Shown here: in pieces, positions 1 through 62,274 of the stretch
How positions within the stretch are numbered: position 1 is the stretch's first letter
Layout: each line of letters begins with the position of its first letter
Origin: Actinomycetota bacterium
GTDB taxonomy: Bacteria; Actinomycetota; CADDZG01; JAHWKV01; JAOPZY01
NCBI GenBank assembly: GCA_035765775.1
Contig: DASTWV010000057.1
Coordinates: 27,160 to 91,159, forward strand
Direction of reading: 5' to 3'
DNA: 64,000 nucleotides
Made by a program: the position numbers and the translations under genes
The notes under the pieces: model-generated
What the model was told of the DNA's origin: nothing
The model's input: only the letters and a program-made list of their open reading frames with translations
The model's database searches: none

Positions 1-2221
1 CCGTGGCGGGGTCCCGGTCAACCAGGATCCCCGCCTCACCGTTACCGACCAGCTCGCAGACCCCGCTCACCCGGGTGGCGATAACCGGCAGCCCGCAGGC
101 GGCGGCCTCGAAGCTGGCCAGGGAGAAGGTCTCGTAGGCGCTGGGGAGGACGAAGACGTCGGCGGCCTGATAGAAGACCTCTGGCACCTCCGAAGGACCG
201 AAGAACGTCACATCGGGGGCCACGCCGCACGCCTCGGCGATCCCCTGCATGCGCCGGGGCTCCCCCCCGCCCACCACCCACAGGCGGTAAGGGCAGCCCT
301 GCTCCCGGACCCGCTCCAGCGCGTGGATGAGGATCGGAAGGCCCTTGCGGTCCCAATCTCCCCCGACGAAGAGGGCCACGAGGGCGTCCTCTGGGACCCC
401 GGCCTGGGCGCGCATGCGCGCGCGGGCGGCGCGGTCCGGGCGGAACACCTGGGCGTCCACCCCGTTGGGGCAGGTGGCGATGGCGACGCCCGGGAACCAG
501 CGGGCGAGCTCGGTGGCCACACCGAGGGACACCGGCGCCAGCCAGCCCAGGCGGCCAGGGCGGTAGCAGAGCCGCTCGCTGCCGCGGGCGATGGCCTTCG
601 ACACCGCCTTGTTGGCCCGGCGCAGCAGCGGGATGCCCCGCTCCGGGGGGAGGTCCCGCTGGGCGGCTTGTGCGCCGGCGTGGCAGTAGTGCACGGCGGC
701 CACATCGACTCGGTTCACCACAATGGCCCCGACGGTGTGCACCACGTCGGCGTCCACCCGCCGGAGGGCCACGCTGGCCCGGGCCAGGAACCACCCGAAG
801 CGCACCGCGAACGGCCGGGCGGGGATCGGGATGCGCGTCCAGCCCTCCACCAGGGGGATCAGCTCGGGCTCCAGGTACCCCGAAACCACGTGGAACCGGA
901 ATTCCCTGTAGGTGTGCTGGATCAGCTCGGCACACGCCCGCTCCATCCCGCCGCGGTGATCGACCCGGTGCGCCACCAGGGCGACCCGGGGCCGGGCGGC
1001 AGGATCCGCCGCGGGCGGGGGTGGGCCGGTGGGCCCGGGGGTGGCGTCGGGAGGGTGGCGCCGGAGCCTGCGCCCCCGGCCCGGGATGTCGAGCGAGGTG
1101 AGCAGCTCGGCGAAGCCCGCCGCCATCCGCTCCTCGGAGAACCGGGGGGCCCGGGCCAGGGCCCCCGCGCGCAGTGCTGCGGCCCGGGCTTCGTCCCCGA
1201 CGATGGAGAGGATGGCGTCCGCCATGGGAGCCGGCTCCCCCACCGGCACCAGCACCCCTGACACCCCGTCCTCGATGATCTCGAGCGGCCCCCCGGCAGC
1301 GGTCGCCACCAGCGGCTTGCCCAGGGCCAGCGCCTCCACCAACACCAGCCCGAAGGGCTCACCGAAGGAGGCGTGCACCACCACATCCATCGCGTCGAAC
1401 CACGGGTAGACATCGCTGCGGTGGCCGGCGAAGTGGACTCGGTCGGTGATCCCGAGCTCCTCCACCTGGGTCTGGAGCTGCGCCGGGTAGTCGCCCTCCC
1501 ACCCGAGGACCGCACCACCTACCACCAGGAAGCGCGCCGCGGGATTCGCCCTCGCCACCCGGGCGGCCGCCTCGAGGAACACCCGCTGGCCCTTCCAGGC
1601 CTGCAGGCGGCCGACGATGCCCACGACTGGGGCGGATTCCCAGCCTAGCTGCGCCCGGATCGCCTGGCCGGATCCGCGGTACTCCGCCACCTGTTCCACC
1701 GGCGATCCGAGATGGATCTTGACCACGCGGCGCTCCGGGGTCAGCTCCCGCTGGGCGGCAACCGCCTCCTCGCAGCTGGCCACCACGACCGTGGCGGGCA
1801 CCCGGGCGGCGACCGCATCCATCCGGGAGGCGGCATCCGGAATCCCCTGCTGCCACCAGATGGCCGGCACGCTGCTGGCCCAACAGGCGGCCCCGCCGTA
1901 CACGTGGCCCTTCGCCATGTTGGACACCACCGCCTGGATGCCGGTGCGGCGGATCATGCTCCGCAGCTCACGCACCACGCGGATGCCGGCGGCGGGGTCC
2001 CGGAGCCGACCGGCCTCCACCACGTGCGCCGGCCAGCCCACCTCGGCGAACCACTCCTCGACCGGACCCCGGTGCAGGAGCACAGGTTTCGGCTCGTACC
2101 CGAAGGCGGGGAGATGGCGCGCCAGGCCCACGAGGGCGCGCTCGGCGCCGCCCGGCACCGCGCTCGGGCTGACGAGCAACACCGCACCCTTGCCGGGACG
2201 CTGGTTTAGGAGGTGGGCCAT
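1..2221 (-). CDS. Tandem GT4-GT4 (two fused family-1-fold glycosyltransferase domains), partial: C-terminus runs off window start
   Basis: The minus frame from ATG 2221 stays open to position 1 and is not in the ORF track because no stop lies in the window. The N-terminus reads MAHLLNQRPGKGAVLLVSPSAVPGGAERALVGLARH, a GT4 N-terminal fold. A linker (...DIPGRGRRLRRHPPDATPGP...) leads to a second GT4-like start, RVALVAHRVDHRGGMER. The final residues in the window, ...FVLPSAYETFSLASFEAAACGLPVIATRVSGVCELVGNGEAGILVDRDP, form the GT4 E-x7-E region. The ATG lies 5 nt after the ugd stop, so the two genes are packed as an operon. Confidence 0.6.
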   Translation of the reverse strand, partial: MAHLLNQRPGKGAVLLVSPSAVPGGAERALVGLARHLPAFGYEPKPVLLHRGPVEEWFAEVGWPAHVVEAGRLRDPAAGIRVVRELRSMIRRTGIQAVVSNMAKGHVYGGAACWASSVPAIWWQQGIPDAASRMDAVAARVPATVVVASCEEAVAAQRELTPERRVVKIHLGSPVEQVAEYRGSGQAIRAQLGWESAPVVGIVGRLQAWKGQRVFLEAAARVARANPAARFLVVGGAVLGWEGDYPAQLQTQVEELGITDRVHFAGHRSDVYPWFDAMDVVVHASFGEPFGLVLVEALALGKPLVATAAGGPLEIIEDGVSGVLVPVGEPAPMADAILSIVGDEARAAALRAGALARAPRFSEERMAAGFAELLTSLDIPGRGRRLRRHPPDATPGPTGPPPPAADPAARPRVALVAHRVDHRGGMERACAELIQHTYREFRFHVVSGYLEPELIPLVEGWTRIPIPARPFAVRFGWFLARASVALRRVDADVVHTVGAIVVNRVDVAAVHYCHAGAQAAQRDLPPERGIPLLRRANKAVSKAIARGSERLCYRPGRLGWLAPVSLGVATELARWFPGVAIATCPNGVDAQVFRPDRAARARMRAQAGVPEDALVALFVGGDWDRKGLPILIHALERVREQGCPYRLWVVGGGEPRRMQGIAEACGVAPDVTFFGPSEVPEVFYQAADVFVLPSAYETFSLASFEAAACGLPVIATRVSGVCELVGNGEAGILVDRDPAT

Positions 2222-2225
2222 CGGT

Positions 2226-3551
2226 TTACGCGGCCGCTGGCTTCTGGGGAGGCCGGCCGGTCGGGTAGTACGCGAAGCCCGCTGCCGCCACCTCCTCGGG
2301 ATCCAGGAGGTTGCGGGCGTCGATGATGATCGGGATGGCCATGACCTCCCGGATCCGGGCGAGATCCAGGGCGCCGTACTCCGGCCAGTCGGTGGCCACC
2401 ACCAGGCAGTGCGCCCCCGTGGCCGCGGCATATGGGCCGTCGGCCAGTTCGAGCCCGGGCAGCGCGGCAACGGCCGAGGATCCTGCCGCGGGGTCGGCGC
2501 CGGCCACCTGCGCCCCGGCCTCCATGAGGTGCCCGGCCAAGCGGAGTGCGGGCGAGTCCCGGATGTCGTCGGTGCCCGGCTTGAAGGCGAGCCCCAGGAC
2601 CCCGACCCGCTTGCCCTCGAGGTTCCACAGGGCGGCGCGGACTTTGCCCACGATCGCGTCGAGCGCCTCGTCGTTCAGCTTGACCACCTCGTCGAGCAGG
2701 CTGAAGTCGTAGCCGAGTCGCGTGGCCTGCGAGCGGAAGGCCGCGAGATCCTTTGGGAAGCAGAACCCGCCGTAGCCGAGGCCGGCATTGAGGAAGGCGC
2801 GGCCGATCCGGGGGTCGGCGCCCATGATGTCGGCGATCGCCACCACATCGGCGCCCGAGGCCTCGCACACCCGGGCCAGGCCGTTGGCAAACGAGATCTT
2901 GAGGGCCAGGAAGGCGTTGCAGGCATGCTTGGCCAGCTCGGCGGTGGCCACGTCGGTGGCGAAGTACTGTGCCCCGGCATCGACAATCGGTGCGTACAGC
3001 TCCCGCAGGAGGCCGTGGGCGACCGCCGAGTCCGCCCCCACCAGGATCCGGTCCGGGCGCAGGGAATCCTCCACCGCCGCCCCCTCGCGCAGGAACTCGG
3101 GGTTGGATGCCACCTCGAAGCGGTGCCGGGTGGACCGCGAGAGCACGAGGCGGACCCACTCGGCGGTCTGCACCGGCACGGTCGACTTCTCCACCACCAC
3201 CATGTCCCGGCTAGCCCAGCGGGCCACGGCGGAGGCGGCGTGCTCCACCGCCACCAGGTTGGGCTCGCCGTTGGGCCGGCCCGGGGTGCCGACGCAGATG
3301 AATGCCACTTCGGCCCCGGCAATCGATGCTTCGGGGTTCCCGGCGAACACCAGGTGCCCTCCGGCCTGGCCGGCGTCCACCAGGGCCTGGAGGCCCTCCT
3401 CGTAGAAGGGCATCACTCCCGCCTGCAGCGCCGCCACCTTGGCGGCGTCGTCATCCAGGCCCACCACGTGGTGGCCGATGTGCGCCAGCGCGGCGGCAGT
3501 CACCAGGCCAACGTGGCCCGCGCCGATCACGACAATCCGTCGGCTTCTCAT
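2226..3551 (-). CDS. ugd: UDP-glucose 6-dehydrogenase
   Basis: 441 aa. N-terminal Rossmann motif IVVIGAGHVGLVTAAALA. UDPG/GDP-mannose dehydrogenase family motifs GGFCFPKD and a C-terminal UDP-binding domain. Confidence 0.9.
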   Translation of the reverse strand: MRSRRIVVIGAGHVGLVTAAALAHIGHHVVGLDDDAAKVAALQAGVMPFYEEGLQALVDAGQAGGHLVFAGNPEASIAGAEVAFICVGTPGRPNGEPNLVAVEHAASAVARWASRDMVVVEKSTVPVQTAEWVRLVLSRSTRHRFEVASNPEFLREGAAVEDSLRPDRILVGADSAVAHGLLRELYAPIVDAGAQYFATDVATAELAKHACNAFLALKISFANGLARVCEASGADVVAIADIMGADPRIGRAFLNAGLGYGGFCFPKDLAAFRSQATRLGYDFSLLDEVVKLNDEALDAIVGKVRAALWNLEGKRVGVLGLAFKPGTDDIRDSPALRLAGHLMEAGAQVAGADPAAGSSAVAALPGLELADGPYAAATGAHCLVVATDWPEYGALDLARIREVMAIPIIIDARNLLDPEEVAAAGFAYYPTGRPPQKPAAA

Positions 3552-3625: not shown

Positions 3626-5383
3626 TCAGTGGTCGTCGTGCGCCGGACGGCGCCGGGGCGCAGGCTCTCTCACCGGCTGATCGGGGAACCAGCCGTCGCC
3701 CGCAGCACCCTGCTGCCAGGGGTAGTCGGCGGAACGGGCGTGGGTGCTGACACTCGGCTGCGGGAGCTTCCCGCCCACCGGGCGGTTCGTCGCCCGCTCG
3801 GACCGCTCCCGCCTTCGGCGCGCCCCGCGGGGCTCTTCCGCGGTATACGAATAATAGTCGTACCCATAATATCCCGTATCATAATCAAAACCTCTGGACG
3901 ACCCGACTCCGTTGATCACAACCCCGAGCAGTTGGCCGCCCGCTTTCTGCAGCTGCGCCTGGGCGTGCGTGAGCGTCCGGTGGGTAACCTCGCCCGGGTT
4001 CACCACCAGCACCACCCCGTCCACCCGCGAGGCGAGCGCGCCGGCGTCCGCCACCCCCAGCAACGGGGGGGAGTCGATGATCACGAGGTCCGCCGCCGAG
4101 CGCAGGACCTCGAGGATCTCGCCGAAGCGGGCCGAGGCCAGGATCTCCGCCGGATTGGGCGGGGTGCGCCCGGCCGCCAGCACTCGCAGATGGGGCAGCT
4201 CGTTGGTCTGCATCAGGCGCTCCAGCGGCACGTTGGGCAGCACGGCGTCCACCAAGCCCAGCGAGTTCTGCAGCCCGAAGAACCGGTGGACGCTCGGGCG
4301 GCGGAGATCGGCCGAAACCAGGACGGTGCGGACACCGGAGACCGCGAACGCGGCGGCGATGTTGGCGGCCGTCGTGCTCTTGCCCTCCCCTTTCACCGAG
4401 CTGGTGACCAGCAGGGTGCCCAATGGCCGATCAACGGAGAGGAACCGCAGGTTGGTGCGCAAGCTGCGGTAGGCCTCGGCGGTGGGCGAGGCGGGGTTGT
4501 GCACCAGCGCCGCAGATCCCGCCGGGGTCTCCAGCTCCTTGGTATGGGGAACCGATCCCAGGATGAGCGAGCCCGTGACCGCCTCCACGTCCTCGGCGCT
4601 GCGCAGGCGGTCGTCGAGAGCCTCGATGAGCAACGCCAGGCCGACCGCCAGCAGGAGTCCCAGTGCTGCACCCAGCAGCACGTTCTGCTTCCCCTTCGGG
4701 CTCACCGGGAAGCGGGGGGTGGCGGCCGACTGCACGACGGATCCCCCACCGGACACGATTGAATTGGCGCCCGGCAGTTGGTCGAGTTGACCCTGGAGCG
4801 TCGTCAGGGTGTCGTTCATCGAGGTCACCGCGGTGGCGGAGGCGGGCGAGGCACCGGCGGCCGCAATCTGGGCCTTGAGCGAGTCGATCTGCGTGGTGAG
4901 GTCCTTGCTGGCGGCGGCGATGTCGTTGATCACCGCGTCCCGCTGGAAGGAGATGAACGCATTGGCCACCGCGTCGGCCCATGCGGCCGCCAGCGCAGGA
5001 TGGTGGTTGGCTGCCTGCACCTGGATGATCTGCGTGCCCGGAACCACCGACGCCTTGACTGTGGACCGCTGGGCGCCGGCGGCCCCGGGCGGCAGGTTCT
5101 TCTGGGCCAGCGTGAGCACCGCGTCGCTCTGGATCAGGGTGACGTCGGTCTGCATCGCCACGGTGGGATTAGCCAGGAAATTGAGCACGTCGGAATTCGG
5201 TGACGACGGGTTCACGAACGGGGTGACGTTGACTTCGGCGGTCGCCTGGTAGGTCGGCGCCATGCGGACCGACACCACTGCTGCGCTCACCGCCCCTGCG
5301 ACAACCAGGCCCGCGATGATCAGCCAGCGGCGCTTGAGGATGCGCAGGTACTTGCGGAGCAGCTGGGCGCCGGCGTCATCCAC
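3626..5383 (-). CDS. wzc: Wzc-like polysaccharide co-polymerase / BY tyrosine autokinase
   Basis: Cytoplasmic LLRKYLRILKRRW motif followed by TM1, then a periplasmic coiled-coil domain and TM2. The CpsD/CapB-like ATPase has Walker A GEGKST, and the C-terminus carries a Tyr cluster YDTGYYGYDYYSY. The track ORF runs to 5485. The likely start is the GTG at ~5383 just before the LLRKYL motif, overlapping the stop of the upstream HTH gene (sequence GTGGATGA). Confidence 0.85.
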   Translation of the reverse strand: MDDAGAQLLRKYLRILKRRWLIIAGLVVAGAVSAAVVSVRMAPTYQATAEVNVTPFVNPSSPNSDVLNFLANPTVAMQTDVTLIQSDAVLTLAQKNLPPGAAGAQRSTVKASVVPGTQIIQVQAANHHPALAAAWADAVANAFISFQRDAVINDIAAASKDLTTQIDSLKAQIAAAGASPASATAVTSMNDTLTTLQGQLDQLPGANSIVSGGGSVVQSAATPRFPVSPKGKQNVLLGAALGLLLAVGLALLIEALDDRLRSAEDVEAVTGSLILGSVPHTKELETPAGSAALVHNPASPTAEAYRSLRTNLRFLSVDRPLGTLLVTSSVKGEGKSTTAANIAAAFAVSGVRTVLVSADLRRPSVHRFFGLQNSLGLVDAVLPNVPLERLMQTNELPHLRVLAAGRTPPNPAEILASARFGEILEVLRSAADLVIIDSPPLLGVADAGALASRVDGVVLVVNPGEVTHRTLTHAQAQLQKAGGQLLGVVINGVGSSRGFDYDTGYYGYDYYSYTAEEPRGARRRRERSERATNRPVGGKLPQPSVSTHARSADYPWQQGAAGDGWFPDQPVREPAPRRRPAHDDH

Positions 5384-5687
5384 GGGCGCCCCCGGCGCCT
5401 TCGGCGGGAGCCGTGCGGGCGTCCGGGGGGGCGGCCCCCGCCCGGCTCCAGCTCGCCAGCACCCGGCCCACTTCGGAGACGGCAAAAAGCCGGTGGCCGC
5501 CGAAGGTCCGGTAACAGGCGATCTTGCCTTCGTCCGCCCAGGTCCGCACCGCCCGGGCGCTCACTCCCAGCGCCTTCGCCACCTCGGCGGTGCGCAGGGC
5601 GGGCTCCGCAGACGGCATCTCGGTGGGCGTCCCAGGACCGGCGAGATGACCGGGCAGCCGATCATGCATGGGATCAAGCTCTGACAT
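5376..5687 (-). CDS. Small MerR/excisionase-family HTH DNA-binding protein (BldC-like)
   Basis: An internal ATG sits behind the RBS AGGAGGGGA. The HTH region reads LRTAEVAKALGVSARAVRTWADEGKIACYRTFGGHRLF, typical of HTH_17/MerR N-terminal domains. The long track ORF 5376..6011 upstream of this ATG is a Cys/Ser/Arg-rich, non-protein-like extension. Confidence 0.6.
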   Translation of the reverse strand: MSELDPMHDRLPGHLAGPGTPTEMPSAEPALRTAEVAKALGVSARAVRTWADEGKIACYRTFGGHRLFAVSEVGRVLASWSRAGAAPPDARTAPAEGAGGARG

Positions 5688-5754
5688 GGTGCTCCCCTCC
5701 TGAGGGTGGACGTCGGGCAAGCCAGCGAGTGGCGGGACGGCAGGGATGGGCTGG

Positions 5755-6114
5755 TTACGAGGCCGCTTTGTCGCATAGGGCAGCAAGGGCGCCGCTGCGC
5801 AGCCGGTAAGCGTGCATCCGGGAGATGCCGAGCCTGCCGGCCACGGTCGACGGCGACAGGTCGGCGATGTACCACAAGAACAGCAGCTCCCGCTCCCGGG
5901 GTGCCAGGCGTTGGACCATCCGGCGGCGCAGCTCCTCGCGCTCGTCAAGACGGTGGACAAACCCGTCGTGGAATGGCCCGTGGGCAGCATCGAACGGCCC
6001 GTTCGAAACAAGCAGGACCGAGGCAGACTTGGGATCGAAGAGATCCCGATAGCGTTTCAGGGTCAGTGCCACCCCCTCCGGGGTGGCCCACAGCGTTGGC
6101 TCCGCACGTCCCAT
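5755..6114 (-). CDS. Small regulator containing only a sigma-70 region-4-like HTH
   Basis: C-terminal LAPRERELLFLWYIADLSPSTVAGRLGISRMHAYRLRSGALAAL matches sigma-70 region 4 (ECF/LuxR-like HTH). No region 2 is recognisable. Start taken at the internal MGRAEP. Confidence 0.5.
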   Translation of the reverse strand: MGRAEPTLWATPEGVALTLKRYRDLFDPKSASVLLVSNGPFDAAHGPFHDGFVHRLDEREELRRRMVQRLAPRERELLFLWYIADLSPSTVAGRLGISRMHAYRLRSGALAALCDKAAS

Positions 6115-6266
6115 GCCCACTCCGTTCTCGGTCCCCCCGGCCCGGCGGTCCAGCACGCACAACAGAAGAATGGCATCTCCTGAACCGTGTACGTGCCTTG
6201 AAACATGTAGTCCAGTAACTCTCCTTCTATAGGGGGTTATGGAGAAGCCGCAGGTACGATGCTGCC

Positions 6267-6827
6267 GTGACGACGGTGCTCTTCGTCTGCACGGCCAACC
6301 AGTGCCGCTCGCCCATGGCCGTTCTCTTCGCCCGGCAGGCCTTGGCCCAGCGGGAGCCACAGGTGCAGGTCATGGGGGCAGGGACCTCGGCCGCCGGCGC
6401 ACGGCCGGTGACACCCGCCACGGCCAAGGTCATGGCTCGCCGGGGGCTCGACGCCTCCGCGCACCGCTCCAGCGGCATCCTCGAGGCTCTCTCCCCCGAG
6501 CCTGACCTGGTGATCGGGCTGGCCCGAGAGCACGCCCGAACCGTCGTCGAGGAGCGCCCTGAGATGTTCCCGAAGACCTTTACCCTTAAGGATCTGGTTC
6601 GCCGGGCTACCGACGCCGGCCCGAGGGGCCACAACGAGGATCTCGCCTCCTACCTGTCCCGGCTGGGAGCGGGCCGCGGATTCTCGTCGTTGGCCGGGTG
6701 GGCTGCCACCGACGAGGTTGCCGACCCGGTAGGGCAACCACTGGCGGCCCACGAACGCTGCGCCGCCGAGCTCGAAACCCTGGTGGGCGCTCTGGTGGAC
6801 CATCTCTGGCCGCCACCGCGATCGTAA
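6267..6827 (+). CDS. Low-molecular-weight protein tyrosine phosphatase (Wzb-like)
   Basis: The P-loop VLFVCTANQCRSPMA is a C-X5-R(S) motif, and a D-P loop follows. 186 aa. Divergent from the wzc operon. Confidence 0.85.
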   Translation: MTTVLFVCTANQCRSPMAVLFARQALAQREPQVQVMGAGTSAAGARPVTPATAKVMARRGLDASAHRSSGILEALSPEPDLVIGLAREHARTVVEERPEMFPKTFTLKDLVRRATDAGPRGHNEDLASYLSRLGAGRGFSSLAGWAATDEVADPVGQPLAAHERCAAELETLVGALVDHLWPPPRS

Positions 6828-7454: not shown

Positions 7455-8111
7455 TTGACGCCCCCGGCTGGTCACCGGAGCGGTGCCGATTTCGTGACGA
7501 TGCTGCGAGGCGGAAAAAACGGCAAAGGGTTCGTGCACCATCATGGGAGGATGCACCATGCCGACCACGTCGCCCTGATCCGGGCCGGTGTCGAAGCTCA
7601 CCCGGGCACCTGGGCCGACCTGGGCTCAGGCCGGGGGGCCTTCACCCTCGCCCTGGCGGACCTCCTCGGACGCATCGGAGGCCCGGCCGGGACGATCCTT
7701 TCCATCGACCTCGACGCCGGCGCTTTGCGCTCGCAGGAGGAGGCGATGCGGCGGCGTTTCCCGGCCGCCCAGGTGGTCTACCGGCGGGCCGACTTCACCG
7801 ACCCCGCTGCCCGGGGCATCACGCCGGCCTCCCTCGACGGGCTGCTCATGGCGAACTCGCTGCACTTCATCCGCAGCCCGCGATCGGCCCTGGTGGATCT
7901 GGTAGCCCTCCTGAAACCGGGCGGCCGCTTCGTCCTGGTGGAATACGACACCGACTCGGGCACCACCTGGGTGCCGTACCCGCTCTCGTTCGCCACCTGG
8001 GAGCGGTTCTCGGCCGAGGTTGGGTTGCAGGCGACGCACCTGGTGCACCGGGTGCCGAGCCGCTTCCTGGGCCATATCTACTCGGCGGCAAGCGACGCCC
8101 CTGGAAGGTAG
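7455..8111 (+). CDS. Class I SAM-dependent methyltransferase
   Basis: Motif I DLGSGRGAFTLALA and motif II/post-I region LVEYD. Start may be the internal ATG at ~7500 or ~7551. Its TAG stop lies 10 nt before the DNA methyltransferase ATG. Confidence 0.7.
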   Translation: MTPPAGHRSGADFVTMLRGGKNGKGFVHHHGRMHHADHVALIRAGVEAHPGTWADLGSGRGAFTLALADLLGRIGGPAGTILSIDLDAGALRSQEEAMRRRFPAAQVVYRRADFTDPAARGITPASLDGLLMANSLHFIRSPRSALVDLVALLKPGGRFVLVEYDTDSGTTWVPYPLSFATWERFSAEVGLQATHLVHRVPSRFLGHIYSAASDAPGR

Positions 8112-8121
8112 CGTGGCCGCC

Positions 8122-8997
8122 ATGCCGGGCATCGACTGGGACGCGGTCATGGGGGGCTCGGCTTGCCGGACCGCCCTGGGCGCCCTGGTGGTCGGCGACG
8201 CCCTCGCACAGCTCCGGGTGCTCCCTGCCGCCAGCATCGACCTGGTGGTGACCTCGCCCCCCTACGACCGGCAGGGCAAGTACCACGACGGCCTGGCCTA
8301 CGGGCGGGACTGGTACGAGGGTTACTTCCTGGAGGTCACCGCCGAGATCCGCCGCCTGCTCGCGCCCCGGGGCAGCTTCGTCCTCAACTACCGCTCGAAA
8401 CGCCACGGCTCCGAGCGCGGGACCCTGCAGTACGAGCTCGTGTTCTGGCTCCGGGACCAGGGCTTCCTCTTCGCCGAGGATTTCGTGTGGGGCAAGCCCT
8501 CGCCCCCGCCCGGGCGGTTCAACCGGTTCCTGAAGGACGCCGTGGAGTACTGCTTCCAGTTCACCGTCTCGCCTGACTGGGCCTTTCACCCGGAGCATTG
8601 CCTGCGGCCCGCCCGCTGGGACGCCGCCGATCGCCTCCGGCGCCGGGCGCTGGCGCACAACTATGAGCGGGTGCAGGAGCCGTCCGGGCACGGGCGCCGC
8701 AGGGTGCAGGCCGGCCCCGACCTGGTGCGCCCCTCCACCTTGCTGGCCTTCGAGCCCGAGTTCGGCCCCAACCCCACCGGCCACCCCAGCCGGTTCCCCA
8801 TCGGGCTGCCAGACTTTTTCATCCGGCTGCTCAGCCAGCCCGGGGATGTGGTCCTCGACCCGTTCGCCGGCACCGGGACCACCGGGGTGGCAGCGGAGCG
8901 CCTGGGCCGGCGATGGCTGGCCGTGGAGGCCGATGCCAGCTACGCCGCAGGCTTGCCAGCCCGCCTGGCCGAGGCGCGCCCAGCTGACGGCGCCTGA
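8122..8997 (+). CDS. DNA methyltransferase, beta-class (N4-cytosine or N6-adenine)
   Basis: Motif IV DLVVTSPPY precedes motif I VLDPFAGTGTTGVAA. The IV->I order defines beta-class amino-MTases of the N6_N4_Mtase family. The internal ATG MPGIDWD is used, because the track ORF extension upstream overlaps the preceding gene. Confidence 0.85.
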   Translation: MPGIDWDAVMGGSACRTALGALVVGDALAQLRVLPAASIDLVVTSPPYDRQGKYHDGLAYGRDWYEGYFLEVTAEIRRLLAPRGSFVLNYRSKRHGSERGTLQYELVFWLRDQGFLFAEDFVWGKPSPPPGRFNRFLKDAVEYCFQFTVSPDWAFHPEHCLRPARWDAADRLRRRALAHNYERVQEPSGHGRRRVQAGPDLVRPSTLLAFEPEFGPNPTGHPSRFPIGLPDFFIRLLSQPGDVVLDPFAGTGTTGVAAERLGRRWLAVEADASYAAGLPARLAEARPADGA

Positions 8998-19824: not shown

Positions 19825-22347
19825 ATGCGCATCGGCATCGACTACCAGATCCTCGCCCTGGGGCCGGAGCTCATCACCCGGGGGATGGGCCGCTACACCC
19901 AGCAGCAGCTGCGCGAGGTCCTGGCGGTGGACCGGGACAACGAGTACCTCCTGCTGTGCGAGGCGGGGGCCGACCTCTCGCTGATCGATCCCGCCGTCCT
20001 GGAAGCCCCCAACGTCGACCTCGCCTGCTACCCGAAACCCCGCGCCGAGGTGACCGAAGCGACCACCCTCCAGCTGGCCGAGCACTACCTGGCCTGGCTG
20101 GAGCGCCAGGGCCTCGATCTCTACCACGCCACCGCCCCGCTCATGCTGACCGGCCCCCCGCTGGTCCGCGTGGACACCTGCCCCACAGTCGTCACCCTCT
20201 ACGACCTCATCCCGCTGCGCTACCCCGACCGCTACTACGTCGAGGACCCCCTCCGCCGCCAGTACGAGCGGGGCCTCGGGTTCCTGGCGACCGCCGACCG
20301 GCTCCTCGCCATCTCGGAGTACGCCCGGAGCGACGCCGTGGCCCTCATCGGCTACCCGGAGGAGCGCATCGACAAGGCCTGGCCGATCGCCGACGACGTC
20401 TTCCGGCCGCTCCCCGACCACCTCGTCCGCAAGCTGCTCAGCGTGGTCTCCAGCCGGATCCGGATCCCCGAGCACTACCTGCTCACGGTCAGCCACATCC
20501 ACTACTCCAAGAACCTCGACACGCTGCTCCGGGCGTACGCCGGCCTCCCCGAGGCCCTGCGCACCCGGCTGCCGCTGGTGCTCTGCTGCCACCTGGACCA
20601 GGCCAGCCTGAACGCCGTCGGCAGCCTGGCCTTCGACCTCGGCATCAGCGCCGACCTCGTGATCACCGGTGGCGTGTCCGACGCCGAGCTCGCCGCCCTG
20701 TACAACCGGGCGACGCTGGTGGTCCACCCGTCCCGGGCCGAGGGCTTCGGGTTCCCGGTGCTGGAGGCGATGCGCTGCGGTGCCCCGGTGGTCACCACCA
20801 CAGCGTCGTCCCTGCCCGAAGTGGCGGGCGACGCCGCGCTCCAGGTGGACCCCGAGGACGCCGGCTCCCTCGCCGCCGCCATCCAGCGGGTGGCCGGCGA
20901 CCCGGCCCTCCAGGCCACCCTGCGGGCGAAGGGCTTCGTCCAGGCGGAGCGCTTCAACCGCCACCAGCTGGCCGAGGCCACCCTGGCGTGCTACCAGCGG
21001 GCCGTCGCCCTCCCACCGGCGCCCGGAGGACCGGGACCCGCAGGCCGGCGGATCGCCCTGTGGACTCCCCTGCCGCCGCAGGCCACCGGCATCGCCGACT
21101 ACTCGGCAGAGCTCCTGGACGGCCTCGCCACCCGGTGCGAGGTGGACGTCTTCGTCGACGGCGGGTACCTCCCGGCGGGAGCCGTCCTGCAGCGCCACCA
21201 CATCCACCACGCCTCCGGCTTCGTCCGGCGCAACGCAGCCCGCCCGTACGACGCCGTGCTCTACCAGGTGGGGGCATCACCCTTCCACGCCTACATGACG
21301 GCGGCGTTCGAGGCCCACCCGGGCATCGCCGTGCTCCACGACCTCATCTGGAGCAACGTCGTGTACACCGAGATCGTCCACGAGACGGGCGACGCCCCCC
21401 GGTTCCACCGCATGCTGGCCGACCTGCACGGCGCCCGGGCGGTCGAGGAGCTGCGCCGGCTCGCCTTCGAGGACCAGGACGCGGTCTGGGACTTCTTCGG
21501 GCGCTACCCGATGCTCGACCCGGTGGTGAACCCGAGCATCGCCCAGATCGTGCACTTCCCGGACGCCGCCCGGGAGCTGCTGGCTGCCTTCCCGGGCAGC
21601 CACCCCTGGGTGGTGCCGATGGGGGTGGCCGATCCCTATGCGGGCCAGCCGGACCTGGACCAGGCGGCGGCGCGCACCGCCCTCGGGATGGACCCGGAGC
21701 GCTTCGTCGCCTCCCTCGTCGGCCTGGTCCACCCGCTCAAACGGGTCGAGTCCTGCCTGTGGGCCATCGCCGCCCTGAAGGAGCAGGGCCGCCACCCCCT
21801 CCTGGTGGTCGCCGGCCCGTGTTACGACCAGGCCTACCTGGAGCGGCTCTCCCACCTCGGCTACACGCTGGGCCTGGGCGACACCCTGGAGTTCACCGGC
21901 CGGCTCCCCCGGGAGGACTTCGACCGGCACATGGTGGCCGCCGATGTGATCGTCAACCTGCGCGCCCCGGTCCACAAGCACATGTCGGCAGTGCTCATGC
22001 GCTCGGTCGCCGCCGGCAAGCCGGTGGTGCTCAGCGACCTCCCGGAGTGGCGCTTCCTGCCCGGGTCGTTCTGCTGGCGGGTCCCCGTGGCGGGCGAGGC
22101 CGAGGCGGTGGCCACCGCCCTCGGCGCCCTGGAGGACGACCCCGGGCGCCGCCGGGCCATGGGTGAGGCCGCCCGCGCCTGGTACCTGGCCGAGGGCACC
22201 GCCGAGCGGATGGCGGAGCGCTACCTCGGGGTGGTCGATGCCGTGATCGGCGGCCGGGGCCAGCCTCCCCCTGCCCACCGGGGCGCCCCCCAGACGGATC
22301 GATACAATTCGCCGGTGCCCGGACCGCTGACCCCCTCTTCCGCATGA
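19825..22347 (+). CDS. Tandem GT4-GT4 glycosyltransferase (two complete family-1-fold GT domains in one 840-aa protein)
   Basis: Domain 1 (~1-400) includes LTVSHIHYSKNLDTLLRAY, GFGFPVLEAMRCGAPVVTT and the E-x7-E region. Domain 2 (~410-840) includes GLVHPLKRVESCLWAIAAL and SAVLMRSVAAGKPVVLSDLPEW. Resembles WbdA-type dual-domain mannosyl/rhamnosyl transferases. The stop overlaps the next gene's start (ATGA). Confidence 0.85.
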   Translation: MRIGIDYQILALGPELITRGMGRYTQQQLREVLAVDRDNEYLLLCEAGADLSLIDPAVLEAPNVDLACYPKPRAEVTEATTLQLAEHYLAWLERQGLDLYHATAPLMLTGPPLVRVDTCPTVVTLYDLIPLRYPDRYYVEDPLRRQYERGLGFLATADRLLAISEYARSDAVALIGYPEERIDKAWPIADDVFRPLPDHLVRKLLSVVSSRIRIPEHYLLTVSHIHYSKNLDTLLRAYAGLPEALRTRLPLVLCCHLDQASLNAVGSLAFDLGISADLVITGGVSDAELAALYNRATLVVHPSRAEGFGFPVLEAMRCGAPVVTTTASSLPEVAGDAALQVDPEDAGSLAAAIQRVAGDPALQATLRAKGFVQAERFNRHQLAEATLACYQRAVALPPAPGGPGPAGRRIALWTPLPPQATGIADYSAELLDGLATRCEVDVFVDGGYLPAGAVLQRHHIHHASGFVRRNAARPYDAVLYQVGASPFHAYMTAAFEAHPGIAVLHDLIWSNVVYTEIVHETGDAPRFHRMLADLHGARAVEELRRLAFEDQDAVWDFFGRYPMLDPVVNPSIAQIVHFPDAARELLAAFPGSHPWVVPMGVADPYAGQPDLDQAAARTALGMDPERFVASLVGLVHPLKRVESCLWAIAALKEQGRHPLLVVAGPCYDQAYLERLSHLGYTLGLGDTLEFTGRLPREDFDRHMVAADVIVNLRAPVHKHMSAVLMRSVAAGKPVVLSDLPEWRFLPGSFCWRVPVAGEAEAVATALGALEDDPGRRRAMGEAARAWYLAEGTAERMAERYLGVVDAVIGGRGQPPPAHRGAPQTDRYNSPVPGPLTPSSA

Positions 22348-25949: not shown

Positions 25950-27900
25950 CTTTGGAGAGTCTGTGAGTGCTGGAGGTAGCTATACAGGCCGTCGCAGAAT
26001 CACGCGCCATAGAGCGGGCTTCACCCCTCGATGGGTCACATCCGGAGGCTCCTAGGCCGCCACAAGGACATCCCGCCGGAGGATGTTTCTGCGCCCGGTC
26101 CCGTGCAAGACGCGCCTGAGCGAGCGGAGAGCGCCGGAGGTGGCCGGGGAACCTGCCTTCCCGTGCCGCATCCGTGGCGAGTGCTTCTTGCCATACAGCT
26201 TCAGCAGGTTGTTGCACATGGCCAGCAGGATCCACTCGTCGTTGGCGCCCTGCTCGCCCATGCGCAAGAACTGTCGGTAATGGCGATTCCATTTGATCTG
26301 GCCGAAGACCGGCTCGACGATGTACTGGCGCTGGGCGTAGGCCGCCACCCCCTCCTCGGTGAGCAGGCGGTGCGTCATGGCGTCGATCGGCGAGCAGCCC
26401 TCGGGCGGGTCCCCCACCCGGTAGCCCTCCTCGGCCTGCTGGTGGCGCAGCTTGTAGGCCTTGGACGTGGCGATCATCCGGGGAGGGCCGGCGGCGGTCA
26501 GGTTGGCGGTGCTCAGGTAGCCGGCGTCGGCCAGCACCAGGTCGAACGAGTCGGTGATGCCCGCCAGCTCCAAGTTGGCGAGGCCGAGGACCACCATCGG
26601 CTGGTAGGAGCCGGTGTCGGCGGCGCAGGTGGTGACCTGGGCGCCCACGATGATCTGGTCCGAGCTCACCAACGCCTGGGCGTTGAAGGCCTGGAGGTAG
26701 CGGCCGGCCTGGTCCACCATGATGGCGCTGGCGGGGTCGGTGGTGTTGATCTTCTCCTCGGCCGCCCGGGCGGCGTCCTGGGCGGCCGCCTCGGCCAGCT
26801 GGGCCTGTGCGGCGGCCACCCCCCGGTCCAGGTTTGGGTGGCGTCCTCCCGGCTTGCGGCCCTGGGCTGCCGCCTCCGCCTCCACCGCCTGGCGGCGGGC
26901 CTTGACCGCCTCGGCCTGTTCTTTGGCGACCTCCAGGTCGGCTTCGGCCTCCGGCAGGGTGGGCTGGTCGCGGGTGGTCAGCCGAGGATCGACCCGGGGT
27001 GCCCGCCGGGCGGTCTCCCGTCGGCGCTCGGTGCGCTCCGCCAGACCCTGGCGTTCGGCGTCCAGGGCGTCGGCGTGGCGCTGGTTGACCAGCTCCAGCG
27101 CGGCGTTCAGGTGGGCCTCCCGGGACCCGGGCTCGATCAGGTGCTCGGGCAGCTCGTCGCCCCGGGACTGGCCGAGGCGCTGGTCGTCCTCGGCGTCGGC
27201 CAGCTCACCCTGGCTGACCAGCTCGGCAGCCTTCTTGGTGGCCTCGGCCTTCAACTCGGCCAACTCCTTAGCGATCTGTTTTTTGGTGCGGTTGGCCCTG
27301 AGCGAGGCGCGGGCACGGATCTTGGTGCCATCCAGGGCGACTGTGCCCGCGATCGTCAGCCCGGCGGCTTGGCACAGCATCAGGATGTCGCTGAACAGCG
27401 CCCGGATCTGGGGAGCCTGCTCGGCGCGGAAGCGGGCGATCGTGGCGTGGTCGGGCACCTGGTTGGCGGCGATCACCCGGAAGGCGACGTCGACCTTGCA
27501 GGCTGCCTCGATCGCCCGGGAGGAGTACACCCCGGTGCAGTAGGCGTAGAACAGCAAGGTGAGCAGCATCTCGGGGTCATAGGCGGCCCGGCCGGGACCC
27601 CAGTTGGGGTGGCGGCCGTGCAGCTTCCAGGTCTTTTGCTTGAGCTTGTCGACGACGCTGAGCACGAACCAGGCGAGGTGGTCCGGGGGCAGCCAGTCGA
27701 GCAGGCTGGGCGGCATGAGGAACGGGGTCATGCGATCCGTGGAGACATAGTGTTTGGCCATGCCCCCATTCGCGCACACTTCCGGGGGAAGGTGTTGGAT
27801 TTCGCGATTGCTAGTTTGAGGCCTCGATTTTGCGACACCCTGATAGGTGGCTCAGCGTCACAGGAAACTCCACTAGTGGCCCTGGCATCCATCTCCAAGC
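25950..27900 (-). mobile_element. IS1182-family insertion sequence (boundaries approximate)
   Basis: Contains the 26052..27779 transposase ORF. An imperfect terminal inverted repeat, GCTTTGGAGAG at ~25950 and CATCTCCAAGC at ~27890, flanks ~1.95 kb. The element is inserted between a membrane-protein gene and a REP13E12-like element. Confidence 0.6.
26052..27779 (-). CDS. IS1182-family DDE transposase
   Basis: The N-terminal MTPFLMPPSLLDWLPPDHLAWFVLSVVDKL is the IS1182 N-terminal signature. Also present are YDPEMLLTLLFYAYCTGVYSSRAIE, a central coiled-coil and a C-terminal DDE region (ADAGYLS...). 575 aa. Confidence 0.8.
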   Translation of the reverse strand: MCANGGMAKHYVSTDRMTPFLMPPSLLDWLPPDHLAWFVLSVVDKLKQKTWKLHGRHPNWGPGRAAYDPEMLLTLLFYAYCTGVYSSRAIEAACKVDVAFRVIAANQVPDHATIARFRAEQAPQIRALFSDILMLCQAAGLTIAGTVALDGTKIRARASLRANRTKKQIAKELAELKAEATKKAAELVSQGELADAEDDQRLGQSRGDELPEHLIEPGSREAHLNAALELVNQRHADALDAERQGLAERTERRRETARRAPRVDPRLTTRDQPTLPEAEADLEVAKEQAEAVKARRQAVEAEAAAQGRKPGGRHPNLDRGVAAAQAQLAEAAAQDAARAAEEKINTTDPASAIMVDQAGRYLQAFNAQALVSSDQIIVGAQVTTCAADTGSYQPMVVLGLANLELAGITDSFDLVLADAGYLSTANLTAAGPPRMIATSKAYKLRHQQAEEGYRVGDPPEGCSPIDAMTHRLLTEEGVAAYAQRQYIVEPVFGQIKWNRHYRQFLRMGEQGANDEWILLAMCNNLLKLYGKKHSPRMRHGKAGSPATSGALRSLRRVLHGTGRRNILRRDVLVAA

Positions 27901-62226: not shown

Positions 62227-62274
62227 AGGACCTGTACCCCCTTTCGTTCAGTAGCAGGCAGTAAGCAGGGACGG

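What the first reader, a model, noticed from the sequence alone, without database searches (positions are those of the whole stretch)
5376..6266. Wzc BY-kinase and Wzb phosphatase separated by two mini-regulators (BldC-like HTH and sigma-region-4-only protein)
BY-kinase and LMW-PTP genes are usually adjacent. Here the divergent wzb (+) and the wzc operon (-) flank two tiny DNA-binding proteins. One is a ~104-aa MerR/excisionase-type HTH whose stop overlaps the wzc GTG start (GTGGATGA). The other is a ~120-aa protein comprising only a sigma-70 region-4 HTH. This suggests dedicated transcriptional control wired into the kinase/phosphatase pair, and the region-4-only protein could act as an anti-sigma-like decoy or LuxR-type regulator.
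Basis: partly seen in the sequence, partly recalled or inferred. Interest (0 to 1): 0.5.

Follow-up and report, generated by a model that had tools for sequence, protein, structure and literature searches.

The report
Two small regulators heading an exopolysaccharide operon
Two small DNA-binding-type genes sit between a tyrosine kinase gene (wzc) and its phosphatase gene (wzb) at the head of a sugar-polymer export operon in an uncultured soil actinobacterium. The arrangement recurs in related bacteria, so they are probably dedicated, still uncharacterised switches for that operon rather than a chance juxtaposition.

Summary
On the minus strand lie a 119-aa protein with a SigF/SigB-type sigma region 4 (5755-6114), a 103-aa BldC-like MerR-type winged HTH (5376-5687), and a P-type BY-kinase Wzc (3626-5383). 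After these come ugd and a double GT4 glycosyltransferase. The HTH stop overlaps the wzc start (GTGGATGA). An LMW-PTP gene (6267-6827, +) is divergent.

Two corrections. The "sigma-4-only" protein also carries a conserved, unannotated ~50-aa N-terminal extension. The HTH scores below NCBIfam's BldC cut-off, so it is BldC-like, not BldC.

The order sigma4-like, HTH, wzc recurs on independent metagenome contigs and MAGs of uncultured Actinomycetota. It persists in rearranged form at 41% identity. The RTGGATGA overlap is conserved.

Relatives share a promoter element, TTGACA-N-GTWACA, upstream of the HTH gene. The window lacks it, and its sigma4-HTH gap is only 67 bp.

Most likely this is a locus-specific transcriptional control cassette of an EPS operon. 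The HTH is probably made together with Wzc. Direct tyrosine-phosphate control (sole Tyr59, at the position of a BldC multimer-interface residue) and a sigma-mimic role are untested. It is a new variant of known kinds, of moderate interest.

The parts
2..2221 (-). 5' part of a double GT4 glycosyltransferase gene (two GT1/GT4 modules). It runs off the left edge of the window and is the fourth gene of the operon after HTH, wzc and ugd.
   Evidence: Frame-specific GC3 of 0.9 over 1-2100. Translation. Pfam Glyco_trans_1_4 3.5e-67 and Glycos_transf_1 6e-67, two stretches each.
2226..3551 (-). UDP-glucose/GDP-mannose dehydrogenase (ugd), directly downstream of wzc.
   Evidence: Pfam UDPG_MGDP_dh_N, central and C-terminal domains, 1e-52 to 2e-28. 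ugd is also linked to wzc in L001, L003/4, L017 and L021.
3626..5383 (-). P-type BY-kinase / polysaccharide co-polymerase Wzc (585 aa, GTG start).
   Evidence: NCBIfam TIGR01007 175 bits, above the cut-off of 108. Pfam Wzz, ParA and AAA_31. Walker A GEGKST at 332, Walker A' VSADLRR, Walker B LVIIDSPP at 433, Tyr cluster 501-513, TM segments near 19-42 and 233-258.
5376..5383 (-). 8-nt stop/start overlap GTGGATGA (HTH TGA inside, wzc GTG). It implies translational coupling.
   Evidence: Sequence. The same RTGGATGA overlap occurs in L003-L007, L009 and L014, and as a relic in L011. 26 of 38 HTH homologues end in x-[H/R/N/D/Y]-G, as this overlap dictates.
5376..5687 (-). BldC-like MerR-type winged-HTH protein, 103 aa. 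The core is residues 31-82, and both tails are disordered.
   Evidence: Pfam MerR 41.3 bits and HTH_17 38.7 bits. TIGR01764 excise 35.8, above 28.8; HTH_BldC 46.1, below 77. PDB BldC 6ama 3.3e-9. AF2 topology a1-a2-b1-b2-a3. Foldseek match to BldC at rmsd 1.4 A and 45% identity.
5688..5754 (-). 67-bp gap between the sigma-4 gene and the HTH gene. It holds the HTH ribosome-binding site (GGAGGGGAG) and no promoter-like site.
   Evidence: Sequence. Promoter scan found no sites. The TTGACANGTTACA element seen in relatives is absent.
5755..6114 (-). 119-aa protein. It has a family-specific N-terminal extension (residues 1-50, one confident helix at 12-21) and a SigF/SigB-type sigma region 4 (residues ~52-116).
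   Evidence: Pfam Sigma70_r4 26.9 bits. NCBIfam matches only the C-terminal ends of the SigF and SigBFG models. PDB SigF sigma-4 8jzt 9.5e-7. AF2 pLDDT 75, four helices over 52-113. Foldseek top hit 8jzt. hhalign to a 274-aa sigma factor covers region 4 only.
6115..6266 (.). 152-bp divergent control region between the sigma-4 gene and wzb. At 59% GC it is relatively AT-rich for a 72% GC window. The promoters are not identified.
   Evidence: Sequence and composition. No consensus promoter. Only weak repeats.
6267..6827 (+). Low-molecular-weight protein-tyrosine phosphatase (Wzb-like), 186 aa, GTG start.
   Evidence: Pfam LMWPc 75.2 bits. P-loop C8-X5-R14-S and Asp153-Pro. Homologues lie divergent from the cassette in L006, L003, L007/8 and L014.

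Best explanation
The stretch encodes the regulatory head of a Wzx/Wzy-type exopolysaccharide operon of an uncultured Actinomycetota lineage. The operon order is sigma4-like protein, BldC-like wHTH, Wzc, Ugd, then glycosyltransferases. wzb is transcribed divergently from a shared 152-bp control region.

The sigma4-like protein has a SigF-type region 4 but no region 2, so it cannot itself be a sigma factor. Its recognition helix is under strong purifying selection. It most likely works as a stand-alone, promoter-proximal DNA-binding regulator.

The second protein is a MerR-type winged HTH with no dimerisation or effector domain. By analogy with BldC, it probably binds DNA as head-to-tail multimers. 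Its stop overlaps the wzc start in a conserved RTGGATGA, so it is likely made together with the kinase and could autoregulate the operon.

Shown here: the genes are real, their folds, the conserved synteny, the conserved overlap, and a conserved promoter element in relatives.

Inferred: DNA binding, the targets, the sign of regulation, and co-transcription of the sigma-4 gene with HTH-wzc in this genome (67-bp gap, no promoter).
For: - Domain and fold assignments.
- sigma4, HTH and wzc are adjacent in that order in the window, L001/2, L003/4/5, L006, L023 and L024/25.
- The same three genes stay linked in rearranged form in L007/8 (6.4 kb apart), L016 (divergent, 41% identity) and L017.
- HTH-wzc also occurs without a nearby sigma-4 gene in L014 and L021.
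- The RTGGATGA overlap is conserved.
- The HTH core is 80-90% identical across relatives, with W50, H65, R66 and GG kept as in BldC's DNA-contacting HTH and wing.
- The sigma-4 recognition helix is nearly invariant.
- TTGACA-N-GTWACA with a 17-nt-spaced TAnnnT lies upstream of the HTH gene in L001, L003, L006, L007, L014, L016 and L024. It also lies near distant sigma4-family genes in L019/20.
- That element scores 8 hits in 163 kb against 0.5 expected from shuffles.
- The flanking genes are EPS biosynthesis genes.
Against: - There are no expression or binding data.
- No operator or promoter could be identified in the window itself. The promoter element of the relatives is absent from all 64 kb, even allowing 3 mismatches.
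- BldC's base-reading Arg30 is not kept (Thr49), and Lys33 is Asp52. DNA specificity, and perhaps binding mode, therefore differ.
- The function of the conserved N-terminal 50 aa of the sigma4-like protein is unknown, and the model is poor there (pLDDT below 50 over 33-52).
- One distant family member (L018) lies beside a two-component system and a subtilase, not glycan genes.
- The motif count is partly circular, because the motif was derived from some of the loci counted.
Confidence: 0.55

Rival explanations
1. The BldC-like protein is a direct substrate or partner of Wzc/Wzb. Wzc would phosphorylate its single tyrosine (Tyr59) and Wzb would remove the phosphate. This would switch DNA binding or multimerisation on and off, giving a one-step tyrosine-kinase-to-transcription circuit.
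For: - Its synthesis is translationally coupled to the kinase, and this coupling is conserved.
- In L014 and L011 the HTH gene sits directly divergent from wzb.
- Tyr59 is the only Tyr in 32 of 38 homologues, and 35 of 38 have Tyr at that position.
- By alignment it replaces BldC Ile40, a residue of the head-to-tail oligomer interface in strand b1.
- There is precedent. B. subtilis PtkA phosphorylates FatR Tyr45 in its HTH and lowers DNA binding (PMC3814354). M. tuberculosis PknL phosphorylates Rv2175c, which lies next to its gene (PMC4601284). The HTH gives a weak Pfam hit to Rv2175c_wHTH at E 0.006.
Against: - Tyr59 is His in 2 homologues and Trp in 1. That fits a structural aromatic or hydrophobic role.
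- There are no phosphorylation data.
- Gene adjacency is equally explained by simple co-regulation.
- L011 keeps the HTH and a wzb fragment without any wzc.
Confidence: 0.15
2. The sigma4-like protein acts through the transcription machinery rather than as an ordinary operator-binding factor. It could be a free region 4 that competes with or supplements sigma-A at the beta-flap or -35 element. It could be a decoy for a SigF/RsbW-type anti-sigma factor. It could be one half of a split sigma factor.
For: - Its closest relatives by sequence and fold are region 4 of SigF/SigB-type sigma factors. The top match is the SigF sigma-4 domain crystallised with its anti-sigma factor.
- In relatives, a second -35-like hexamer (GTWACA) sits 7 bp after the TTGACA -35 of the HTH-wzc promoter. 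It is better conserved than the -10.
- Precedents exist: the split sigma SigO-RsoA and the sigma mimic PhyR (PMC8103513).
Against: - No region-2-like partner and no RsbW or STAS genes lie in the conserved neighbourhood.
- The adjacent partner is a MerR-type wHTH.
- The nearly invariant recognition helix argues for DNA reading, which a pure decoy would not need.
- There is no receiver domain as in PhyR.
Confidence: 0.15
3. The two small genes are mobile-element baggage: an excisionase (Xis/RDF) and a phage-type sigma-like HTH. They landed between wzc and wzb by chance and have no role in EPS control.
For: - The HTH passes the TIGR01764 excisionase-domain model. Mycobacteriophage Xis appears among distant fold matches.
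- DUF1492, a phage-associated sigma-like family, is a weak hit for 22 of 24 sigma4-family members.
- An IS transposase lies elsewhere in the window at 26052-27779.
Against: - No integrase or recombinase lies next to the genes, in the window or in any relative.
- The link to wzc, including the exact stop/start overlap, holds across lineages whose Wzc proteins are only 42-62% identical.
- Codon-position GC matches the host genes.
Confidence: 0.03

Closest known systems
BldC of Streptomyces (68-aa MerR-like wHTH; PDB 6AMA/6AMK; PMC5859096)
   Same: - Same fold and topology (a1-a2-b1-b2-a3), with no coiled-coil or effector domain.
- 45% identity over about 55 residues. It is the best PDB sequence hit and a top fold hit.
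- Trp31, His46, Arg47 and the GG wing are kept. Lys26 becomes Arg.
   Different: - It scores below the NCBIfam BldC cut-off (46 against 77 bits).
- Base-reading Arg30 is Thr49, Lys33 is Asp52 and Arg48 is Leu67. Interface residue Ile40 is Tyr59.
- It carries disordered tails of about 30 aa (N-terminal) and about 20 aa (C-terminal).
- BldC is a stand-alone global developmental regulator. This protein is translationally coupled to a BY-kinase at the head of an EPS operon.
Region 4 of SigF/SigB-type (group 3) sigma factors, e.g. SigF sigma-4 in PDB 8JZT
   Same: - Four-helix sigma-4 fold, 35-38% identity.
- The recognition helix ISRMHAYRL compares with ISQMHVSRL in SigF.
   Different: - It has no regions 1.2, 2 or 3, so it cannot bind the core enzyme as a sigma factor or read a -10 element.
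- Instead it has a 50-aa N-terminal extension found only in this small family. The family has about 97 clusters at 50% identity among 1.84 billion representatives, and occurs in 6 of 185,579 GTDB species.
B. subtilis tkmA-ptkA-ptpZ-ugd operon and E. coli wza-wzb-wzc (established knowledge; BY-kinase review PMC9800525)
   Same: - A BY-kinase, an LMW-type phosphatase and UDP-glucose dehydrogenase are encoded together. Ugd is a known BY-kinase substrate in those systems (my knowledge, not tested here).
- The kinase has P-type fused architecture, as in most Actinomycetota BY-kinases.
   Different: - Here the phosphatase gene is divergent.
- Two small HTH genes precede the kinase gene, and one is translationally coupled to it. 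Nothing comparable occurs in those operons.
Locus-encoded regulator pairs of polysaccharide operons: RcsA/RcsB (LuxR-type HTH, cps of enterobacteria) and UpxY/UpxZ of Bacteroides (from my knowledge)
   Same: - The design matches: small dedicated regulators control a long capsule or EPS operon.
- RcsA/B use a four-helix HTH structurally akin to sigma region 4. RcsB and DosR appear among distant fold matches.
   Different: - There is no GerE/LuxR Pfam match, no receiver domain and no NusG-like protein.
- The regulators here are the first genes of the operon itself.
Kinase-adjacent DNA-binding-domain-only regulators that are kinase substrates: Rv2175c/PknL and FatR/PtkA
   Same: - A small HTH with a disordered N-terminal tail is encoded next to a protein kinase gene. 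The Pfam Rv2175c_wHTH hit is weak, E 0.006.
- A BY-kinase can switch off an HTH through a tyrosine.
   Different: - Phosphorylation has not been tested here.
- The HTH families differ (OmpR-like and TetR against MerR-like), and PknL is a Ser/Thr kinase.

Membership tests
BY-kinase (P-type Wzc) | Walker A, Walker B and a C-terminal tyrosine cluster in a P-loop ATPase domain. Family model TIGR01007. | tested here: met
   GEGKST at 332, LVIIDSPP at 433, seven Tyr in 501-513. TIGR01007 175 bits, above 108.
BY-kinase (P-type Wzc) | Walker A' motif hhhhDxDxR. | tested here: inconclusive
   The sequence is VLVSADLRR, with the first Asp replaced by Ser. The same SADLR(R/K) occurs in all relatives checked, so it is a clade feature. 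The effect on activity is unknown.
BY-kinase (P-type Wzc) | N-terminal two-TM Wzz/PCP domain fused to the kinase. | tested here: met
   Pfam Wzz 32.7 bits, above 25.5. Hydrophobic segments near 19-42 and 233-258.
LMW protein-tyrosine phosphatase (Wzb-like) | C-X5-R-(S/T) P-loop near the N-terminus and a DP-loop Asp. Pfam LMWPc. | tested here: met
   C8TANQCRS, Asp153-Pro. LMWPc 75.2 bits, above 23.2.
LMW protein-tyrosine phosphatase (Wzb-like) | Equivalog-level match to E. coli Wzb (NF007520). | tested here: not met
   38.6 bits, below 243. Thioredoxin-type ArsC models score alike. The ArsC Cys82/Cys89 pair is absent from the sequence. This is an LMW-PTP, not a Wzb orthologue.
BldC family | MerR-type wHTH with no coiled-coil dimerisation or effector domain. 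| tested here: met
   Pfam MerR covers only the 38-residue HTH. AF2 gives a1-a2-b1-b2-a3 followed by a disordered tail. Best PDB matches are BldC.
BldC family | NCBIfam NF033787 HTH_BldC above its cut-off. | tested here: not met
   46.1 bits, below 77.
BldC family | DNA-reading residues Arg30 and Lys26, and wing residues His46, Arg47 and Arg48. | tested here: inconclusive
   Kept or conservatively changed: Lys26 to Arg45, His46 to His65, Arg47 to Arg66. Not kept: Arg30 to Thr49, Arg48 to Leu67.
BldC family | Head-to-tail multimerisation on direct repeats. | not testable with these tools
   Interface positions map as Phe21 to Leu40, Val23 to Val42, Trp31 to Trp50, Ile40 to Tyr59 and Thr42 to Thr61. 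This needs DNA-binding or structural experiments.
Classical MerR regulators | C-terminal coiled-coil dimerisation helix and effector-binding domain. | tested here: not met
   Residues 83-103 are low-complexity and disordered, with pLDDT about 45-55. The tails are not conserved.
Excisionase / recombination directionality factor | Encoded beside an integrase within a mobile element. | tested here: not met
   The TIGR01764 domain is matched. No integrase is adjacent in the window or in any of the related loci examined. The conserved neighbour is wzc.
Sigma-70 family sigma factor | Region 2 (core binding and -10 recognition) in addition to region 4. | tested here: not met
   Only region 4 models match, over residues 50-116. 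The protein is 119 aa.
Two-subunit sigma factor (SigO-RsoA type) | A region-4 protein partnered with an adjacent region-2-like protein. | tested here: not met
   The conserved neighbour is a MerR-type wHTH. No Sigma70_r2 hit occurs in the cassette. The definition comes from PMC8103513.
LuxR/GerE-type regulators | Pfam GerE (PF00196) HTH. | tested here: not met
   No GerE hit at E up to 0.1 for any of the 24 family members. There is only a distant fold resemblance.

The most novel reading that the evidence does not exclude
The cassette is a self-contained tyrosine-phosphate transcription switch. Wzc phosphorylates, and Wzb dephosphorylates, the sole conserved tyrosine (Tyr59) of the BldC-like protein translated with it. 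That tyrosine sits where BldC has a head-to-tail interface residue, so EPS polymerisation status would gate cooperative multimerisation on the operon promoter. The sigma4-like protein would read a second -35-like hexamer (GTWACA) next to the -35 element, acting as a free region 4 that modulates sigma-A holoenzyme at that promoter.
Probability: 0.1. Interest if true: 0.7.

Novelty: new variant of a known kind. Interest (0 to 1): 0.4.

Why it matters
How BY-kinase activity feeds back on transcription of polysaccharide operons is poorly understood. In Actinomycetota it is essentially unstudied. This cassette gives a concrete, conserved and testable candidate: a BldC-like DNA-binding protein co-translated with the kinase, plus an uncharacterised family of small sigma-region-4 proteins tied to glycan loci.

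It also extends the BldC-like family to a locus-specific role. It defines a small protein family (region 4 plus a novel N-terminal extension) that current annotation labels only generically. If the two proteins turn out to be plain pathway regulators, the finding is useful for annotation but not surprising.

Tried and rejected
- **Operators in the window.** The promoter/terminator scan of 5300-6400 found no promoter and only one weak intragenic terminator-like site. The repeat search of 5600-6300 gave only short two-copy matches at chance level.
- **Aligning regions upstream of the sigma-4 gene across loci.** They could not be aligned. L008 and L011 share a different promoter, TTGTCA-N17-TAGCAT.
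- **Searching the window for the relatives' element.** TTGACATGTTACA gave 0 hits with up to 3 mismatches.
- **Metagenome scan for the extended promoter.** It returned 3 contigs, 2 of them already known. The third (L027) ends just after the motif.
- **Assigning the N-terminal 50 aa of the sigma4-like protein.** Pfam on all 24 members gave nothing there. hhalign to a full-length SigB/F-like protein aligned region 4 only. Longer proteins that matched the N-terminal part (P0094, P0192, P0193) have no Pfam domains and may be gene-call artefacts.
- **The longer 201-aa and 211-aa ORF versions.** Rejected. The 5' extension has non-coding codon-position GC and would overlap wzb. Homologues start at the short form.
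- **Literature.** No paper was found that links BldC-like or excisionase-family HTH proteins to BY-kinases.
It was rerun without that row.


Full report
**What is in the sequence**

The window is 72% GC, so long ORFs occur in every frame. There are 80 ORFs of at least 50 aa in the first 12 kb. ORF presence alone is therefore not evidence of a gene.

Four genes at the reported place do stand up.

- **wzc**, 3626-5383, minus strand, GTG start. It encodes a 585-aa P-type BY-kinase.
  - NCBIfam TIGR01007 scores 175 bits against a cut-off of 108. Pfam gives Wzz plus ParA/AAA_31.
  - It has Walker A GEGKST, Walker B LVIIDSPP and seven tyrosines in residues 501-513. Two hydrophobic segments flank a roughly 190-aa outside loop.
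  - Its Walker A' reads SADLRR rather than DxDxR. All relatives checked share this, so it is a clade trait.
- **Small HTH gene**, 5376-5687 (-), 103 aa. It passes Pfam MerR (41.3 bits) and HTH_17 (38.7 bits).
- **Sigma-4 gene**, 5755-6114 (-), 119 aa. It passes Pfam Sigma70_r4 (26.9 against 24.1 bits, residues 68-113).
- **wzb**, 6267-6827 (+). It encodes an LMW-PTP: LMWPc 75 bits, P-loop CTANQCRS, and a DP loop.

The HTH stop codon lies inside GTGGATGA, which also holds the wzc GTG.

Codon-position GC is gene-like for both small genes (GC3 0.79-0.80). It is not gene-like for the 5' extension of the longer sigma-4 ORF (0.56).

Downstream of wzc lie ugd (2226-3551) and a double GT4 glycosyltransferase that runs off the left edge of the window. 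The cassette therefore heads an exopolysaccharide operon.

The source is a TPA metagenome-assembled genome labelled Actinomycetota bacterium. The two proteins are HEU5003751.1 and HEU5003750.1.

**The BldC-like protein**

- Its best PDB sequence matches are the two BldC-DNA structures: 6AMA at E 3.3e-9 and 6AMK at 4.1e-8.
- An AlphaFold model built on 38 homologues gives a1 33-40, a2 44-53, b1 58-62, b2 65-68 and a3 70-82. Residues 1-30 and 83-103 are disordered.
- This is the BldC topology described in PMC5859096. Foldseek superposes the model on BldC at 1.4 A with 45% identity.
- It passes the generic excisionase-domain model TIGR01764 but scores below the NCBIfam BldC cut-off (46 against 77 bits). 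It is BldC-like, not a BldC orthologue.

Mapping the published BldC contacts onto the alignment:

| BldC residue | Role in BldC | Here |
|---|---|---|
| Trp31, His46, Arg47 | phosphate and wing (minor-groove) contacts | kept (Trp50, His65, Arg66) |
| Lys26 | major-groove base contact | Arg45 |
| Arg30 | base-reading | Thr49 |
| Lys33 | phosphate contact | Asp52 |
| Arg48 | wing | Leu67 |

The target sequence should therefore differ from that of BldC.

BldC Ile40 is a residue of the head-to-tail oligomer interface. It corresponds to Tyr59 here. Tyr59 is the only tyrosine in 32 of 38 homologues. The position is Tyr in 35 of 38, His in 2 and Trp in 1.

**The sigma-4-like protein**

- Residues about 52-116 are a region 4 of the SigF/SigB type.
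  - The best PDB hit is the SigF sigma-4 domain 8JZT, at 9.5e-7.
  - NCBIfam matches only the C-terminal ends of the SigF and SigBFG models.
  - hhalign to a 274-aa sigma factor aligns region 4 only.
  - The AlphaFold model (pLDDT 75) has four helices at 52-113, and its top Foldseek hit is 8JZT.
- It has no region 2, so it is not a sigma factor.
- It is also not region 4 only. Residues 1-50 are conserved across the family (consensus LFATPEGVAYALKRYRDVFDPKTTSVI).
  - This part contains one confident helix (12-21) and has no Pfam match in any of the 24 members.
- The recognition helix is nearly invariant (S98, R99, H101, Y103, R104). That argues for DNA reading.
- The family is small.
  - It has 97 clusters at E up to 1e-10 among 1.84 billion representatives. 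Nearly all are 110-150 aa and match over their full length.
  - It occurs in 6 of 185,579 GTDB species, all uncultured Actinomycetota MAGs.

**Conservation of the arrangement**

| Arrangement | Loci |
|---|---|
| sigma4, HTH, wzc adjacent in that order | window, L001/L002, L003/4/5, L006, L023, L024/25 (L024 has a second HTH copy upstream) |
| sigma-4 gene divergent from wzb, 6.4 kb of glycosyltransferase genes, then HTH-wzc | L007/8 |
| sigma-4 gene divergent from HTH-wzc | L016 (41% identity) |
| sigma4-ugd-wzc-HTH-wzc | L017 (41% identity) |
| HTH-wzc with no sigma-4 gene in reach; in L014 wzb is directly divergent from the HTH gene | L014, L021 |
| sigma-4 gene, a wzb fragment and the HTH gene, but no wzc | L011/L015 |
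| more distant members beside a GT4 gene | L019/20 |
| distant member beside a two-component system and a subtilase | L018 |

At the DNA level the RTGGATGA stop/start overlap is present in the window, L003-L007, L009 and L014. It survives as a relic in L011. 26 of 38 HTH homologues end in the x-[H/R/N/D/Y]-G that this overlap imposes.

The constant core is HTH-wzc. The sigma-4 gene is a frequent but not obligatory companion. wzb is a variable neighbour.

**A promoter element in relatives**

Non-redundant loci L001, L003, L006, L007, L014, L016 and L024 carry a shared element once each. It lies in the intergenic DNA just upstream of the HTH gene and in the same orientation. Its parts, in order:
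- TTGACA-N-GT(T/A)ACA;
- a TAnnnT hexamer at a 17-nt spacing;
- in most loci, CTA-N3-GGCAGATC.

L001 has a second copy upstream of its sigma-4 gene. L019/20 have one in front of an APH-family gene 2.2 kb from their sigma4-family gene, with no BldC-like gene near.

Across 163 kb of non-redundant loci there are 8 matches with up to 2 substitutions, against 0.5 expected from shuffles. This count is partly circular, because the motif was derived from some of the loci counted.

GTWACA is better conserved than the -10 hexamer, so it is probably a protein-binding site. Its co-occurrence with the sigma-4 family makes that protein a candidate reader. This remains a lead only, because several sigma4-bearing loci lack the element (window, L011, L017, L018, L023).

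The window has no match in 64 kb even with 3 mismatches. Its sigma4-HTH gap is only 67 bp and has no promoter-like site. In L023 the two genes abut in the same way. In this genome the sigma-4 gene is therefore probably co-transcribed with HTH-wzc-ugd-GT from the 152-bp region shared with wzb. I could not identify promoters there.

**Most likely mechanism**

This is a locus-specific transcription control cassette at the head of an EPS operon.

The BldC-like protein is a DNA-binding-domain-only factor, presumably translated together with Wzc through the overlap. By analogy with BldC it would bind cooperatively as head-to-tail multimers and could autoregulate the operon.

The sigma4-like protein would be a stand-alone promoter-proximal HTH factor.

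- Shown: the genes are real, their folds, the synteny, the overlap, and the promoter element in relatives.
- Inferred: DNA binding, the targets, the sign of regulation, and the operon structure.
- Confidence: about 0.55.

**Rival explanations**

- **(a) A direct Tyr59 phospho-switch driven by Wzc and Wzb.** It is attractive because of the coupling, the sole conserved tyrosine at an interface position, and the FatR/PtkA and Rv2175c/PknL precedents. The His and Trp variants fit a merely structural residue, and nothing was tested. Confidence 0.15.
- **(b) The sigma4-like protein acts on RNAP or an anti-sigma factor**, as a free region 4, a decoy or half of a split sigma factor (precedents). There is no region-2 partner and no RsbW or STAS neighbour, and the recognition helix is conserved. 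Confidence 0.15.
- **(c) Mobile-element baggage.** No integrase is present, and the linkage persists across lineages with 42-62% Wzc identity. Confidence 0.03.

**Comparison with known systems and novelty**

The kinase, phosphatase and Ugd trio is classical. P-type kinases are the norm in Actinomycetota.

The two small proteins belong to known fold classes. However, neither is a member of a characterised family:
- BldC cut-off not met;
- not a sigma factor;
- no GerE match;
- not next to an integrase.

I found no paper linking BldC-like or excisionase-type HTH proteins to BY-kinases.

I rate this a new variant of known kinds. It is of moderate interest (0.4), chiefly because it offers a defined and testable link between a BY-kinase and transcription.

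Noticed in passing
L001 8422 and ~7586; L003 1534; L006 8368; L007 7742; L014 2946; L024 2121; L016 7840 (-); L019 5738 (-); L020 5740 (-): A conserved promoter element, TTGACA-N-GT(T/A)ACA, followed by a 17-nt-spaced TAnnnT and often CTA-N3-GGCAGATC. It lies upstream of the BldC-like gene, and in L019/20 upstream of an APH-family gene near a distant sigma4-family gene. The second -35-like hexamer is better conserved than the -10. The element is absent from the whole window.
   Followed up: partly
window 61783-63804 (-): Genes for a phage tail tube (T4 gp19 family, 1.2e-30) and a tail sheath protein (Phage_sheath_1 4e-24 plus its C-terminal domain). They suggest a contractile injection system or a prophage tail module at the right end of the window.
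   Followed up: no
window 26052-27779 (-): A 575-aa DDE transposase (DUF772 plus DDE_Tnp_1_6/DDE_Tnp_1). It is an insertion sequence about 20 kb from the EPS locus.
   Followed up: no
window 19825-22347 (+): A second large GT4 glycosyltransferase with two Glycos_transf_1 stretches (840 aa). It resembles the double GT4 at the left edge, so glycan genes are not confined to the wzc operon.
   Followed up: no
window 7455-8111 (+) and 8020-8997 (+): A class I SAM methyltransferase and an N6/N4 DNA methylase lie just beyond wzb. The maximal ORFs overlap by about 90 nt, so the methylase probably starts later. They have no evident link to the EPS locus.
   Followed up: no
L011/L015 (MAG RYN_267, JAOPZY010000130.1), L011 3282-8318: This locus looks eroded. 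It has the sigma-4 gene, an 876-aa protein with no Pfam match, an 88-aa wzb fragment, and then the HTH gene. The HTH gene still ends in CGTGGATGA, but no wzc follows.
   Followed up: partly
L024 2266-5017; L017 5569-9395: Duplications occur within the cassette. L024 has two BldC-like genes flanking the sigma-4 gene. L017 has two wzc paralogues with near-identical N-termini flanking the HTH gene, followed by a HepT/MNT toxin-antitoxin pair.
   Followed up: partly
window 4283-4303 (Wzc residues ~361-367) and relatives: The Walker A' motif of Wzc reads SADLRR, with Ser in place of the first Asp. This holds in the window and in all eight relatives where the motif was read. It may be a lineage-specific variant of the BY-kinase active site.
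   Followed up: partly
window 6255-6269 (+): A TACGAT hexamer ends 6 nt before the wzb GTG start. wzb may be translated from a leaderless mRNA, as is common in Actinomycetota. No -35 match was found.
   Followed up: no
L008 ~1180-1250 and L011 ~3080-3150: Upstream of the sigma-4 gene these two loci share a different promoter-like element, TTGTCA-N17-TAGCAT. A conserved GGCCCC-N4-GGGGCC hairpin and a leader of about 170 nt follow it.
   Followed up: no
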